A stretch of DNA of 64,000 nt, from the sequence record PQ036202, one strand, 5' to 3'. Numbering within the stretch: position 1 is the first letter of the stretch; every line of letters begins with the position of its first letter. Below are positions 61,024-61,688 of the stretch, in pieces. Source of the DNA: Escherichia phage GEP101. The notes below the pieces were generated by a model. The model did not search any database, had not been told where the DNA came from, and was given only the letters and a program-made list of their open reading frames with translations. The position numbers and the translations under genes are program-made.

Positions 61024-61105
61024 CGGGGCGTATCTCAGCGGTCTTCTAAACCGCCGTTAACCGAGTAAGTGGAGTATGCGGGTTCGAGTCCTGCCGCCTC
61101 GACCA
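61024..61105 (+). tRNA. atypical tRNA-like gene (possible Arg, anticodon TCT; D-arm not resolvable)
   Basis: Clear T-arm GCGGG-TTCGAGT-CCTGC and acceptor CGGGGCG/CGCCTCG+A+CCA; hairpin GCGGT-CTTCTAA-ACCGC; no canonical D-arm by manual folding. Confidence 0.35.
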
Positions 61106-61120
61106 ATTTTGGATGAAATC

Positions 61121-61468
61121 ATGAAAACTTGTATTAGGTGCAAACTTAGCAAGGATGAAAGTGATTTCTACATGAAAGATGGTAGGAGAACTCATTCATA
61201 CTGTAAAAAGTGTGTTAATGAGCAAACCATAGAAAGACAAAGAGCACTTAAACTTTCAGCTATTGAGTACAAAGGTGGGGTTTGTCATGATTGTGGTAAA
61301 AGGTATCATCCAGCAGTGTATGACTTCCATCATTTGAATCCTTCAGAGAAAGATTTTAACATTGGTCATAGAAAAAGTCTTAAGTTCTCTCAGGAGCTAA
61401 AGGACGAACTTGACAAATGTGTTTTGCTATGTTCAAATTGCCATAGGGTAAGACATGCAAAGTATTAG
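61121..61468 (+). CDS. HNH homing endonuclease (free-standing, within tRNA array)
   Basis: Cys-rich zinc-finger pairs and HNH core HHLNPSEKDFNIGH...CSNCHRVRH; start set to ATG 61121 (track start 61076 overlaps tRNA). Confidence 0.65.
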   Translation: MKTCIRCKLSKDESDFYMKDGRRTHSYCKKCVNEQTIERQRALKLSAIEYKGGVCHDCGKRYHPAVYDFHHLNPSEKDFNIGHRKSLKFSQELKDELDKCVLLCSNCHRVRHAKY

Positions 61469-61605
61469 TTAGCAGATTGCTTAGACGACCTTATCGGGTC
61501 TCCGTGTAAGGAGGTGGTCTGTATCTCATGTTTTCCAGAACATGTAAATAATCTGAGAAGGGGCTTTACAGTGTTGCGAAAATACGGTAAGCTTCGAATT
61601 ATAGT

Positions 61606-61688
61606 GTGGGACGATGTTAAGACTCTAAGGCATGAGCAACGGCCTCCAAAACCGTTTCAAAGGGGTTCAACTCCTCCGTCCCATGCCA
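61606..61688 (+). tRNA. atypical tRNA-like gene (anticodon undetermined)
   Basis: Acceptor GTGGGAC/GTCCCAT+G+CCA and T-loop GGTTCAACTCC; internal hairpin AACGG-(9 nt)-CCGTT. Confidence 0.3.

What the first reader, a model, noticed from the sequence alone, without database searches (positions are those of the whole stretch)
61024..61688. Atypical tRNA-like genes and redundant CAT-anticodon tRNAs
Two elements (61024-61105 and 61606-61688) have clear acceptor and T-arms but no canonical D-arm or anticodon arm in manual folds; 61606-61688 has a 9-nt loop where the anticodon loop is expected. The array also holds two CAT-anticodon tRNAs, one with an ambiguous 5' end and possible 1:72 mismatch, and tRNA-Pro has an oversized D-loop. 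These could be non-canonical decoders, regulatory tRNA mimics or decaying copies. All tRNA folds here were done by hand.
Basis: seen in the sequence. Interest (0 to 1): 0.4.

Follow-up and report, generated by a model that had tools for sequence, protein, structure and literature searches.

The report
Rewired phage tRNAs for Arg, Trp
The two odd tRNA-like genes in this Felix O1-like phage are not decaying copies: they are conserved, structurally rearranged tRNAs, one for arginine (a widespread, almost phage-only design that standard tRNA finders miss) and one for tryptophan, and they fill gaps in the phage's own tRNA set.

Summary
ARAGORN misses both elements. Rfam scores 61024-61102 at 31.7 bits (cut-off 29) and does not report 61606-61688.

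Element 1 (61024-61105) belongs to a large RNA family: 118 distinct sequences from several unrelated phage groups and metagenomes, but only 4 hits in 185,579 prokaryotic genomes. It has normal acceptor, anticodon and T arms and no D arm. Instead, a 3-bp helix whose strands flank the anticodon arm covaries (11 pair combinations, 100% paired), followed by a D-loop-like strand UAAYUGGAGUAU. Anticodons are UCU, CCU, UCG or ACG (arginine) in 117 of 118. They usually complement the canonical tRNA-Arg genes in the same array. In Mooglevirus a canonical tRNA-Arg(UCU) sits at the same position.

Element 2 (61606-61688) is a tRNA-Trp(CCA)-like gene with G73. It has an 8-bp acceptor stem, a 4-bp T stem, a 9-nt connector, a 3-bp D stem and a 9-nt anticodon loop. 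It is conserved with compensatory changes across Ounavirinae, and some relatives carry a canonical tRNA-Trp in its place.

Both are most likely working decoders, for AGA/AGG and UGG. Expression and charging are untested. The two CAU tRNAs and the tRNA-Pro variant are minor. I found no published description of the arginine design.

The parts
61024..61105 (+). Element 1: non-canonical tRNA-Arg(UCU), 82 nt including the encoded CCA (61103-61105) and discriminator A (61102)
   Evidence: Rfam tRNA 31.7 bits. Family covariance model R1 97.3 bits, E 1.7e-30. ARAGORN misses it.
61024..61030 (+). Element 1 acceptor 5' strand, pairs with 61095-61101 (7 bp, includes G3.U70)
   Evidence: All 7 pairs show double compensatory changes in the family; 99% of cells paired.
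61034..61036 (+). Element 1 helix 2, 5' strand CUC. It pairs with GAG at 61063-61065, so the helix spans the anticodon arm and stands in for a D stem.
   Evidence: 100% paired in 59 sequences. Column 12:41 is UA/GC/AU/CG; column 13:40 is CG/GC/UA. There are 11 combinations in 118 sequences. The alternative partner 49-51 is not supported.
61038..61054 (+). Element 1 anticodon arm GCGGU-CUUCUAA-ACCGC; anticodon UCU at 61045-61047
   Evidence: Within Felixounavirus there is a compensatory variant GCUGU/ACAGC.
61055..61062 (+). Element 1 8-nt bulge CGUUAACC between the anticodon stem and the helix 2 3' strand (family consensus CGUUAANN)
   Evidence: CGUUAA was part of the search patterns, so its invariance is partly imposed.
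61066..61077 (+). Element 1 D-loop-like single strand UAAGUGGAGUAU (equivalents of G18, G19, A20) joining helix 2 to the T arm
   Evidence: YUGGAGUAU was present in nearly all true members from scan 1, which did not constrain it (one GGCGUAU variant, one truncated copy). The resemblance to a tRNA-Arg D loop is inference.
61078..61094 (+). Element 1 T arm GCGGG-UUCGAGU-CCUGC
61121..61468 (+). Free-standing HNH endonuclease gene (115 aa) between the two elements; about 358 bp present or absent among Felixounaviruses
   Evidence: ORF. Weak PF01844 HNH match, 16.7 bits, below the cut-off. Precisely absent in phage adrianh. Annotated as HNH in related genomes.
61606..61688 (+). Element 2: non-canonical tRNA-Trp(CCA)-like gene, 83 nt; G73 at 61685, CCA at 61686-61688
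   Evidence: ARAGORN and Rfam at its cut-off miss it. tRNA-Sec model 23 bits. Fold. Conserved with covariation.
61606..61613 (+). Element 2 8-nt acceptor 5' strand GUGGGACG, pairs with 61677-61684 (G1.U72 here, A1-U72 in most relatives)
   Evidence: The 8:65 pair covaries (G-C, U-A, A-U) across four phage types, while 49:65 is mostly mismatched.
61614..61622 (+). Element 2 9-nt connector AUGUUAAGA between the acceptor and D stems (canonical tRNAs have 2 nt)
   Evidence: Invariant in Ounavirinae. A/U-rich 9-10-nt connectors occur in rV5-like and Mydovirus Trp genes.
61623..61636 (+). Element 2 D arm: CUC / UAAGGCAU / GAG
   Evidence: CUC/GAG, CAC/GUG and CAU/GUG variants.
61638..61656 (+). Element 2 anticodon arm AACGG-CCUCCAAAA-CCGUU; anticodon CCA at 61646-61648; C61643 and A61651 face each other unpaired
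   Evidence: Four of five stem pairs show double changes (AACGG/CCGUU, GUAAG/CUUAC, GUAGG/CCUAC). The loop stays at 9 nt.
61662..61676 (+). Element 2 T arm with a 4-bp stem: GGGG-UUCAACU-CCUC
59486..59562 (+). tRNA(CAU) no. 1: U1xC72 mismatch, G2-C3-G4-G5-G6 acceptor, loop CUCAUUA (U at position 37), U73
   Evidence: ARAGORN; not reported by Rfam; fold; conserved with T-stem covariation.
60504..60580 (+). tRNA(CAU) no. 2: fully paired acceptor, loop UUCAUAA
59230..59309 (+). tRNA-Pro(UGG) allele with a D loop about 3 nt longer
   Evidence: (54 bits).
60673..60701 (+). Sigma-70-like promoter TTGACA-17-TATAGT, about 320 nt upstream of element 1
   Evidence: 11 of 12 consensus matches. Conserved in relatives. 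Function not shown.

Best explanation
Both elements are working tRNA genes with non-standard architecture. They complete the phage's own decoding set.

Element 1 is a tRNA-Arg(UCU) for AGA/AGG, which make up 37% of the phage's Arg codons. It belongs to a widespread, essentially phage-restricted class. The acceptor, anticodon and T arms are normal, but the four-way cloverleaf junction is replaced by a three-way junction. A short helix (C11-N-N with N'-N'-G) has one strand before and one strand after the anticodon arm, so it extends that arm through an internal loop of 1 nt against 8 nt. A 12-nt single strand with a D-loop-like sequence (UAAYUGGAGUAU) leads into the T arm.

Inferred, not shown: the GG contacts the T loop to form the elbow, the following A plays the role of A20 for arginyl-tRNA synthetase, and the host enzyme charges the RNA with arginine for use on the ribosome.

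Element 2 is a tRNA-Trp(CCA) with G73. It has an 8-bp acceptor stem stacked on a 4-bp T stem, a 9-nt connector, a 3-bp D stem, and an anticodon loop closed by a C.A mismatch. It supplies tryptophan, the one amino acid for which no canonical tRNA is detected in Felix O1-like arrays.

The HNH gene between them is a separate, optional homing-type insertion. Such genes recur next to family members and may help them spread between phages.

Why the unusual folds are kept is unknown. My leading guess, with low confidence, is that they resist host or phage nucleases that recognise the canonical D-arm and elbow region.
For: Element 1 family:
- 59 distinct sequences: 98.5% of cells paired; 18 of 20 pairs with double changes; covariation score 0.823 against 0.199 in shuffles (0 of 500 as high) and at most 0.17 when the partners are slid.
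- Helix 2 alone: 100% paired, covariation 0.574 against 0.100. There are 11 pair combinations in 118 sequences.
- Scans that did not constrain the anticodon gave UCU 105, CCU 5, ACG 4, UCG 3, ACU 1, so 117 of 118 are arginine anticodons. Position 73 is G or A in 113 of 118. CCA is encoded in 93 of 118.
- 144 of 180 loci hold ordinary tRNAs nearby, and 85 hold five or more.
- Of 48 loci with other tRNA-Arg genes, only 3 repeat the anticodon. A canonical UCU is present in 1 of 39 loci where the family member is UCU and in 7 of 8 where it is not (Fisher p = 1e-6).
- Mooglevirus Sf16 has a canonical tRNA-Arg(UCU) followed by the orthologous HNH gene at the same position.
- AGA is 28% and AGG 9% of Arg codons in the window. 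The Felix O1 genome paper expected but did not find an AGA tRNA (PMC3185647).
- Only 4 true hits in 185,579 prokaryotic genomes, all on MAG contigs, against 72 matching IMG/VR contigs.

Element 2:
- 7 distinct Ounavirinae sequences: 99.3% of cells paired; 7 pairs with double changes; none in the slid controls.
- CCA anticodon and G73 are kept.
- The 8:65 pair covaries across four phage types.
- VpaE1/wV8-type phages carry a canonical tRNA-Trp plus another HNH gene in its place.
- The Mooglevirus array is reported to cover 19 amino acids (PMC12482277). None of the tRNAs annotated or called by ARAGORN in the fetched Sf16 stretch is Trp.
Against: - No expression, processing, modification or aminoacylation data are available.
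- Neither single-sequence folding nor RNAalifold predicts helix 2. The element 1 MFE is no better than shuffles (z = 0.04). Helix 2 rests on covariation alone.
- Family members were collected with sequence patterns, so the invariance of CGUUAA, GUAA and GGAGUAUG is partly imposed. Divergent members are under-sampled.
- Many sequences are related, so the counts are not independent events.
- Three loci do repeat an anticodon, one member has ACU, and one relative of the same topology has UAU.
- Whether EF-Tu, the ribosome and modification enzymes accept a tRNA without a D arm in bacteria is untested.
- Element 2 rests on only 7 distinct sequences from one subfamily. Its 9-nt loop could impair normal triplet reading.
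Confidence: 0.7

Rival explanations
1. The elements are tRNA mimics that are not used in translation. They could be decoys for a host tRNA-targeting nuclease or modification enzyme, sponges or regulators of ArgRS or TrpRS, or processing signals in the array transcript.
For: The architecture is non-canonical. Phage tRNAs are known to counter anticodon nucleases (PMC10264068, listed). Allo-tRNAs with odd structures can be charged without being used in translation (PMC5389517). Three loci carry a canonical tRNA with the same anticodon.
Against: - A decoy for one nuclease would not need to switch among four arginine anticodons, nor to complement the canonical isoacceptors of its own array.
- Encoded CCA, a G/A73 discriminator, a normal T loop and a 12-bp acceptor/T stack are all kept.
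- Canonical tRNAs occupy the same slots in sister phages.
Confidence: 0.15
2. The elements are decaying tRNA pseudogenes left by rearrangements in a tRNA array rich in homing endonucleases.
For: Detector scores are low. An HNH gene is adjacent. The same array holds other scrambled tRNA-like pieces, such as 60176-60248.
Against: - Element 1 is identical or nearly so across Felixounavirus while its flanks vary. It is 83-90% identical in unrelated phage families.
- Every helix is maintained by compensatory changes.
- Loop nucleotides outside the search patterns (U8, A9, U10, C11) are conserved in 117-118 of 118 sequences.
Confidence: 0.03
3. Element 2's enlarged anticodon loop gives it an altered reading. 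It might decode UGA as Trp, as tRNA-Trp variants with weakened anticodon stems do, or read more than three bases and cause programmed frameshifting.
For: [quoted passage not shown] About 12 of 55 long ORFs in the window end in TGA.
Against: The published effect involves the top pair, 27:43, not 31:39. Here the stem keeps 5 pairs plus an extra 26:44 pair. The related rV5-like Trp genes have ordinary 7-nt loops. I did not look for in-frame UGA or frameshift sites, and none was seen in passing.
Confidence: 0.07
4. The rearranged tRNA-Arg gene persists mainly as cargo or target of mobile HNH endonuclease cassettes. Its spread reflects selfish mobility rather than any benefit of the fold.
For: An HNH-like ORF lies within 1.5 kb in 16 of 89 loci, and immediately 3' on the same strand in about 10. 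These involve at least two HNH types, in Felix-like, T5-like and other phages. Identity of 83-90% between unrelated phage families implies horizontal transfer.
Against: Most members (about 80%) have no HNH gene nearby. The same HNH ortholog sits next to a canonical tRNA-Arg in Sf16. Mobility explains spread, not the strict maintenance of structure and arginine anticodons. This is compatible with the best explanation rather than an alternative to it.
Confidence: 0.1

Closest known systems
Canonical phage tRNA-Arg(UCU), e.g. the gene at the same position in Mooglevirus Sf16 (MF158043, 17805-17880)
   Same: Same anticodon loop CUUCUAA, same genomic slot upstream of the orthologous HNH gene, same presumed job of decoding AGA/AGG, which are rare in the host. 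T loop GGUUCGAGUCC, encoded CCA.
   Different: Sf16 has a normal cloverleaf of 76 nt that ARAGORN and tRNAscan both find. Element 1 has no D arm. Its D-stem-like strands flank the anticodon arm and its D-loop-like sequence lies where the variable loop should be.
D-arm-lacking mitochondrial tRNAs (metazoan mt-tRNA-Ser(AGY/AGN) and nematode/mite minimal tRNAs; reviews PMC7609411 and PMC4394434, listed)
   Same: Functional tRNAs without a D arm exist. Some also read AGN codons. The anticodon limb is compensated by extended stacking (own knowledge).
   Different: Those are shortened RNAs served by co-evolved mitochondrial factors. The phage family is full length (79 nt plus CCA), keeps a D-loop-like GGA strand and a canonical T arm, and must use standard bacterial factors. 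The flanking 3-bp helix is not, to my knowledge, a feature of the mitochondrial forms.
(8/4) tRNAs and allo-tRNAs, including (8/4) tRNA-Ser and tRNA-His in phages and (8/4) tRNAs with an extra loop (Mukai et al. 2017, PMC5389517)
   Same: Element 2 and its rV5-like and Mydovirus relatives have a 12-bp acceptor branch split 8/4. 8/4 tRNAs are already known in phage tRNA clusters, and an 'E-loop' variant is mentioned.
   Different: The published phage cases are Ser and His. Trp is not mentioned. Allo-tRNAs have long variable arms and tRNA-Sec-like D arms, whereas element 2 has a short variable region, a 9-nt connector and a 9-nt anticodon loop. I could not see the figure, so I cannot say whether its connector equals the published E-loop.
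tRNA-Sec (Rfam RF01852)
   Same: It is the best Rfam match for element 2. Bacterial tRNA-Sec has an 8-bp acceptor stem (own knowledge).
   Different: The score is only 23 bits against a cut-off of 47. The anticodon is CCA, not UCA. There is no long variable arm and the T stem has 4 bp rather than 5.
[quoted passage not shown]
   Same: [quoted passage not shown]
   Different: The known effect comes from unpairing the top pair, 27:43. Element 2 has all five stem pairs and is unpaired at the loop-proximal 31:39 position.
tmRNA tRNA-like domain and viral tRNA-like structures
   Same: Acceptor and T arms without a proper D stem. Element 1 in this window happens to have G3.U70, the alanine identity pair.
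   Different: G3.U70 occurs in only 7 of 59 family members. The family has a full anticodon arm with arginine anticodons. There is no mRNA-like domain and no Rfam tmRNA match above noise.

Membership tests
tRNA (canonical cloverleaf, Rfam RF00005) - element 1 | 7-bp acceptor stem, 5-bp T stem with GTTCRANYC loop, 5-bp anticodon stem with 7-nt loop, discriminator plus CCA | tested here: met
   31.7 bits against a cut-off of 29.
tRNA (canonical cloverleaf, Rfam RF00005) - element 1 | D arm (stem 10-13:22-25 closing a D loop) between position 9 and the anticodon arm; four-way junction | tested here: not met
   Only 7 nt lie between the acceptor and anticodon stems. The model's D arm is deleted. 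ARAGORN fails and overlaps only 3 of 183 family members. A three-way junction is supported by covariation.
tRNA-Arg (bacterial identity set: C35, U/G36, A20, A/G73; own knowledge of E. coli ArgRS) | Arginine anticodon with C35 | tested here: met
   UCU here. 117 of 118 family members have UCU, CCU, UCG or ACG.
tRNA-Arg (bacterial identity set) | A at position 20 following G18 G19 in the D loop | tested here: inconclusive
   The sequence GGA is present in the D-loop-like strand (61072-61074). It was kept in nearly all members from the scan that did not constrain it (one GGC variant). The UAU-anticodon relative has GGU instead. Whether this A occupies the A20 position in three dimensions cannot be tested here.
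tRNA-Arg (bacterial identity set) | Purine discriminator N73 | tested here: met
   A73 here; G in 75, A in 38, U in 4, C in 1 across the family.
tRNA-Arg (bacterial identity set) | Arginylation by ArgRS and use on the ribosome | not testable with these tools
   Indirect support only: isoacceptor complementarity and positional exchange with a canonical tRNA-Arg(UCU).
tRNA-Trp (E. coli identity: C34 C35 A36, G73, A1-U72; own knowledge) - element 2 | CCA anticodon and G73 | tested here: met
   61646-61648 is CCA and 61685 is G. Both are invariant in 7 Ounavirinae variants and in the rV5-like and Mydovirus types.
tRNA-Trp - element 2 | A1-U72 | tested here: inconclusive
   G1.U72 in this window. 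A1-U72 in 4 of 7 variants; G-C in Arno162.
tRNA (canonical cloverleaf) - element 2 | 7/5 acceptor/T split, 2-nt connector, 7-nt anticodon loop | tested here: not met
   8/4 split, 9-nt connector, 9-nt loop. Missed by ARAGORN and by Rfam at its cut-off.
(8/4) tRNAs / allo-tRNA (Mukai 2017) | 12-bp acceptor branch made of an 8-bp acceptor stem and a 4-bp T stem | tested here: met
   The 8:65 pair covaries (G-C, U-A, A-U), while 49:65 is mismatched in most types.
(8/4) tRNAs / allo-tRNA (Mukai 2017) | Long variable arm and tRNA-Sec-like D arm (long stem, tetraloop); serine identity | tested here: not met
   The variable region is 5 nt and the D arm is 3 bp with an 8-nt loop. So element 2 is 8/4 but not an allo-tRNA.
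Bacterial initiator tRNA-fMet - tRNA(CAU) 59486-59562 | Mismatch at 1:72 | tested here: met
   U1xC72, conserved in relatives.
Bacterial initiator tRNA-fMet - tRNA(CAU) 59486-59562 | Three consecutive G-C pairs, 29-31:39-41, in the anticodon stem | tested here: not met
   The stem is CAUGU/GCAUG. The tRNAscan isotype models do not call the Mooglevirus ortholog fMet (PMC12482277). I therefore do not file it as an initiator.

The most novel reading that the evidence does not exclude
Element 1 represents an undescribed structural class of translationally active tRNA. It has a three-way junction in which the D-stem strands flank the anticodon arm. The class is dedicated mainly to arginine, is spread across many unrelated phage lineages, and is invisible to ARAGORN. 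Together with the 8/4 tRNA-Trp, it would show that phages keep alternative tRNA architectures. These may distinguish their own tRNAs from host tRNAs, for example to escape tRNA-directed defence nucleases or the phage's own degradation of host tRNA.
Probability: 0.4. Interest if true: 0.85.

Novelty: new variant of a known kind. Interest (0 to 1): 0.78.

Why it matters
- Annotation: a whole class of phage tRNA-Arg genes, and an 8/4 tRNA-Trp, are missed, left without an isotype ('tRNA-OTHER') or mis-called. One example is tRNA-Val(AAC) in Streptomyces phage Yaboi. As a result, phage tRNA repertoires and codon-compensation analyses are systematically incomplete. The Felix O1 genome paper noted a missing AGA tRNA, and the Sf14 study counts 19 amino acids.
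- tRNA biology: if the arginine RNA is charged and used by bacterial ribosomes, a closed D arm is dispensable for ArgRS, EF-Tu and the ribosome in a bacterial system. Until now that has been accepted mainly for mitochondria with co-evolved factors.
- Phage-host conflict: a conserved alternative fold gives a concrete, testable candidate for how phage tRNAs might be told apart from host tRNAs.
- Engineering: naturally orthogonal-looking scaffolds are useful starting points for genetic-code expansion.

Tried and rejected
1. Alanine identity for element 1. This copy has G3.U70 and A73, like tRNA-Ala and tmRNA. Rejected: only 7 of 59 family members have G.U at 3:70.
2. Pairing of CUC (61034-36) with the second GAG in GGAG (columns 49-51). 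Rejected: no covariation, and 20 of 59 sequences are unpaired at 12:50.
3. Thermodynamic prediction. RNAfold and RNAalifold recover the acceptor, anticodon and T stems but not helix 2. The element 1 MFE z-score is 0.04. Folding energy is uninformative here.
4. Element 2 as tRNA-Sec. Only 23 bits, wrong anticodon, no long variable arm.
5. Element 2 as a Blastocrithidia-type 4-bp-stem tRNA-Trp. A different pair is affected.
6. Assigning the two CAU tRNAs by similarity to E. coli genes. There was no BLAST match in 5,426 E. coli genomes. The published isotype-model scores for the Mooglevirus orthologs are also inconsistent. Identity (Met, fMet or Ile2) is left open.
7. Looking for the family in bacteria and archaea. 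12 pattern hits, of which 8 are chance matches in coding DNA and 4 lie on MAG contigs.
8. Literature search for a prior description: seven full-text searches, plus reading of the Felix O1, Sf14, allo-tRNA and 4-bp-stem papers. Nothing was found. Subscription journals are not covered.
9. A first HNH translation used coordinates that were off by one. Corrected to 61121-61468.
10. In one search the window row was mis-registered by my regular expression. The Sf16 row carries the same bases at the positions discussed.
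Full report
**Context.** The window is a Felix O1-like myovirus (Felixounavirus). The 901 bases around the finding are 99.3% identical to Felixounavirus NRG857CP1 and 96.4% identical to Salmonella phage Felix O1. The finding lies in a tRNA array on the + strand, 59230-63798, in which ARAGORN tRNAs.

**Checking the observation.**
- ARAGORN reports neither 61024-61105 nor 61606-61688.
- Rfam's tRNA model just passes its cut-off on 61024-61102 (31.7 bits against 29). It aligns the acceptor, anticodon and T arms, deletes the D arm and inserts 20 nt in the variable region.
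- Element 2 obtains only a sub-threshold tRNA-Sec match of 23 bits.
Element 1 has a perfectly ordinary anticodon arm (GCGGU/CUUCUAA/ACCGC, anticodon UCU). What is missing is the D arm: 7 nt take its place and 22 nt lie between the anticodon and T arms.
- Element 2 has an 8-bp acceptor stem, 9 unpaired nt, a 3-bp stem with an 8-nt GG-containing loop, a 5-bp stem with the 9-nt loop CCUCCAAAA, and a 4-bp T stem.
- Both end in an encoded CCA.

**Element 1 is one member of a large family.** A BLAST search of the 101 bases around it against GenBank phages found 277 records. Besides Felixounaviruses, matches of 83-90% identity over about 84 nt occur in unrelated phages:
- jumbo Asteriusvirus phages (Turkey5, Ecwhy_1, SP27);
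- rV5-like Vequintavirinae and Klebsiella Mydovirus (BIS47, KpS8);
- T5-like Demerecviridae (Roth49, Kamaji);
- Erwinia Kolesnikvirus Ep030;
- more distantly, Streptomyces phages.

In those records the gene is unannotated, labelled 'tRNA-OTHER' or 'tRNA', or mis-called tRNA-Val(aac).

**Pattern scans.** The first scan of IMG/VR fixed the anticodon loop and CGUUAA/GUAA. The second fixed only CGUUAA-N4-GUAA-N1-2-GGAGUAUG. After removing chance coding matches, these gave 118 distinct sequences. The same pattern in one genome from each of 185,579 bacterial and archaeal species gave only four true members, all on MAG contigs. The family is therefore essentially phage-borne.

**Architecture of the family.** The 59-sequence alignment A2 needs a single 1-nt gap. 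Read 5' to 3', it contains:
- acceptor strand (7 nt);
- U-A-U;
- C-N-N;
- one unpaired nucleotide;
- a 5-bp anticodon stem with a 7-nt loop;
- an 8-nt bulge, CGUUAANN;
- N'-N'-G;
- UAAYUGGAGUAU;
- a canonical T arm;
- acceptor strand, discriminator, and usually CCA.

Counting pairs on this structure gives 98.5% of cells paired and 18 of 20 pairs with changes on both sides. The covariation score is 0.823, against 0.199 in shuffles (0 of 500 as high) and at most 0.17 when the partners are slid.

The unusual helix, columns 11-13 with 40-42, is paired in every sequence. Column 12:41 shows UA, GC, AU and CG; column 13:40 shows CG, GC and UA. In the 118-sequence set there are 11 combinations, from CUC/GAG to CCG/CGG. 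The alternative partner, GAG within GGAG, shows no covariation. RNAalifold finds the other three stems but not this 3-bp helix, so helix 2 rests on covariation, not on energy.

The result is a three-way junction. The short helix extends the anticodon arm through an internal loop of 1 nt against 8 nt. A 12-nt strand that reads like a tRNA-Arg D loop, with GG followed by A, connects it to the T arm. That this strand builds the elbow and presents an A20 equivalent is my inference.

**Evidence that it is an arginine decoder.**
- In scans that did not constrain the anticodon, the loops carry UCU (105), CCU (5), ACG (4), UCG (3) and ACU (1). That is 117 of 118 arginine anticodons of four kinds. They include ACG, the A34 anticodon typical of bacterial tRNA-Arg, and C35 is always kept.
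- The discriminator is G or A in 113 of 118, and CCA is encoded in 93 of 118.
- Members sit in tRNA arrays. 144 of 180 loci have ordinary tRNAs in the DNA held, and 85 have five or more.
- Among 48 loci that also carry other tRNA-Arg genes, the anticodon is repeated in only three. When the family member is UCU, a canonical UCU is present in 1 of 39 loci. When it is CCU, UCG or ACG, a canonical UCU is present in 7 of 8 (Fisher p about 1e-6). The loci are partly redundant, so this overstates independence.
- In Mooglevirus Sf16 the same slot, followed by the orthologous HNH gene, is occupied by a canonical 76-nt tRNA-Arg(UCU) with the same anticodon loop.
- The phage needs this decoder. AGA and AGG are 28% and 9% of Arg codons in the window's long ORFs. 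The Felix O1 genome paper remarked that a tRNA for AGA would have been expected but was not found (PMC3185647).
- Within Felixounavirus, the only variant I saw in the recovered sequences is a compensatory pair in the anticodon stem, GCGGU/ACCGC to GCUGU/ACAGC.
- The G3.U70 pair of this copy is not a family feature (7 of 59), which removes the idea of alanine charging.
- A covariance model of the family scores element 1 at 97.3 bits, against 32.5 bits for the best normal tRNA in the window.

**Divergent relatives.** The covariance model also picks up divergent relatives of the same topology:
- one with ACG and a 3-nt bulge;
- one with UCU;
- one with GCG;
- one with UAU, in which GGA is replaced by GGU.

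The UAU case suggests that the topology is not strictly limited to arginine.

**Element 2.** BLAST finds it only in Ounavirinae-like genomes, in 235 records. Seven distinct versions from Felixounavirus, Suspvirus, Mooglevirus and Pectobacterium phage Arno162 were aligned.
- On the structure, 99.3% of cells pair and seven pairs change on both sides. Four of the five anticodon-stem pairs do so: AACGG/CCGUU, GUAAG/CUUAC, GUAGG/CCUAC. The D-like stem shows CUC/GAG, CAC/GUG and CAU/GUG. The slid controls show no double changes.
- The loop stays at 9 nt with an unpaired C.A or C.C at its base, and UCCAAA is invariant.
- The anticodon CCA and G73 match the tryptophan identity elements as I know them for E. 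coli.
- rV5-like, L045-type and Mydovirus arrays hold Trp(CCA) genes of similar build: an 8-nt acceptor strand, an A/U-rich connector of 9-10 nt, and a 4-bp T stem. Across these types nucleotide 8 pairs with 65 (G-C, U-A, A-U), while 49:65 is mostly mismatched. This supports an 8/4 split.
- 8/4 tRNAs for Ser and His, and 8/4 tRNAs with an 'extra loop', were reported by Mukai et al. (PMC5389517). Trp is not among them.
- Functionally, VpaE1_ev78 and wV8-type phages have replaced element 2 by a canonical 71-nt tRNA-Trp followed by a second HNH gene.
- The window's array otherwise lacks only Trp and Cys. Cys lies just beyond the window in relatives. The Mooglevirus array is reported to cover 19 amino acids (PMC12482277), and none of the tRNAs annotated or called by ARAGORN in the fetched Sf16 stretch is Trp. 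Element 2 therefore most simply supplies the missing tryptophan tRNA.

**The HNH gene.** A 115-aa HNH-type endonuclease gene (61121-61468) lies between the elements. Its Pfam HNH match is weak, and it is annotated HNH in relatives. It is precisely absent from phage adrianh, where the element 1 3' flank joins the sequence that follows the stop codon here. HNH-like ORFs occur within 1.5 kb of 16 of 89 family-1 loci, about ten of them directly downstream, and are of at least two types. This fits homing-endonuclease traffic in tRNA arrays and may explain horizontal spread. It does not explain the conserved fold.

**The other points in the finding.**
- The tRNA(CAU) at 59486-59562 has a conserved U1xC72 mismatch and a G2-C3-G4-G5-G6 acceptor stem, both reminiscent of an initiator. 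It lacks the three G-C pairs in the anticodon stem and has U at position 37. Rfam does not report it.
- The second tRNA(CAU), 60504-60580, is fully paired.
- Neither matches any E. coli tRNA gene by BLAST. Published isotype scores for the orthologs are inconsistent. Two or three CAU tRNAs with different roles are normal in bacteria and phages, so this is not remarkable.
- tRNA-Pro here is an allele with about 3 extra D-loop nucleotides. It scores well with both detectors.

**Mechanism, and what is shown versus inferred.**

Shown:
- the sequences, their conservation, the helices and the arginine-only anticodons;
- the complementarity with canonical tRNA-Arg genes and the positional exchange with canonical tRNAs;
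- the phage restriction of the family.

Inferred:
- transcription, perhaps from the strong sigma-70-like promoter at 60673-60701;
- RNase P and 3' processing, and charging by host ArgRS and TrpRS;
- an L-shaped fold, and use on the ribosome.

Unknown: why the alternative folds are maintained. Escape from nucleases that recognise the standard tRNA body is a reasonable but untested idea.

**Novelty.** These are tRNAs, so the kind is known. The arginine architecture and the 8/4 tryptophan form are variants for which I found no description in seven full-text searches and four relevant papers. Subscription literature is not covered, and annotation pipelines already flag some copies as 'tRNA-OTHER'.

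**Caveats.** Family members were collected by pattern, so the invariance of the pattern bases is partly imposed and divergent members are under-sampled. Many sequences are related, so the counts are not independent events. No experimental data were available.

Noticed in passing
window 60176-60248 (+), with flanks 60143-60275: A permuted tRNA-like element lies between tRNA-Asp and tRNA-Lys. An anticodon-like hairpin (UUUCU/CCGGUAA/AGAAA), a T arm and the acceptor 3' strand ACUCGGC come first. Then, 4 nt later, come the acceptor 5' strand GUCGAGU and a D-arm-like GUGU-AAUGGUA-GCAC. The two acceptor strands change together in Sf16, EcSzw-2 and L116 (ACACGUU/GGCGUGU). The anticodon-like loop drifts (CCGGUAA, CGGUAA, CUGGUAA, CUUAUAA). 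RNAalifold encloses the whole element in a 7-bp helix, AGACCGU/ACGGUCU. It may be a permuted tRNA gene, a tRNA-like domain of a longer RNA, or a remnant.
   Followed up: partly
window 59402-59421, 59569-59588, 60053-60072, 60143-60162 (+): A 20-nt motif, CAGAAGACCNNTTACAGCAA, occurs four times in the spacers of the tRNA array (0 expected by chance). By eye, each copy is followed 60-130 nt later by a partly complementary GGTCTGG, as if each spacer formed a long hairpin unit. Function unknown (sequence).
   Followed up: partly
window 60277-60419 (+): A long inverted repeat, AAUUAUCUUUGUAGAUAAG / CUUAUCUACAAAGAUAAUU, encloses about 105 nt just upstream of tRNA-Lys. It keeps compensatory changes in Sf16 (RNAalifold). 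No Rfam match.
   Followed up: partly
window 7564-7847 (-): A group I intron (Rfam RF00028, 62 bits against a cut-off of 50) lies between two ORFs that look like the two parts of a DNA polymerase (7744-9960 and 6960-7514). An HNH/AP2-like ORF sits at 6423-6956. The Felix O1 genome paper reported no introns.
   Followed up: partly
L086 5506-5585 (IMG/VR UViG_3300027976_000090): An RNA with the same rearranged topology as the arginine family (CCC/GGG flanking helix, 5-nt bulge) but with anticodon UAU (Ile AUA) and GGU instead of GGA in the D-loop-like strand. The design may serve other amino acids too.
   Followed up: partly
L181 (metagenome contig Ga0255783_10000721), three sites: One contig carries three members of the rearranged tRNA-Arg family with different anticodons (ACG, CCU, UCU), plus two canonical tRNA-Arg(UCU) genes.
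   Followed up: no
L037 4163-4256, L061 1612-1702, L072 2516-2609, L093 6269-6364: Unusually long (91-96 nt) tRNA-Ile(UAU) genes with a long variable arm. In three of the four loci they lie within about 200 nt of rearranged tRNA-Arg genes. They are reminiscent of the UAU allo-tRNAs of Mukai et al. but with a 7/5 branch in the folds.
   Followed up: no
L026 about 9258-9345, L045 about 85-170, L006 about 2810-2895: rV5-like and Klebsiella Mydovirus arrays contain 81-83-nt Trp(CCA) genes with an 8/4 acceptor/T split, a 9-10-nt connector and very short D loops. In the rV5-like and Mydovirus types there is a conserved C.U or U.U mismatch at 4:69. ARAGORN called no tRNA at these sites in the loci checked.
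   Followed up: partly
window 62806-63363 (+): A 185-aa ORF inside the tRNA array matches DUF7338 strongly (208 bits). It is a conserved phage protein of unknown function embedded between tRNA genes.
   Followed up: no
phage database records MG065664, MG065689, GU169904, OK283618: Records named Campylobacter phage A132 and A110a, Staphylococcus phage SA1 and Listeria phage LPML1 carry Felix O1-like or rV5-like copies of these elements at 83-99% identity. This suggests mislabelled or contaminated entries.
   Followed up: no
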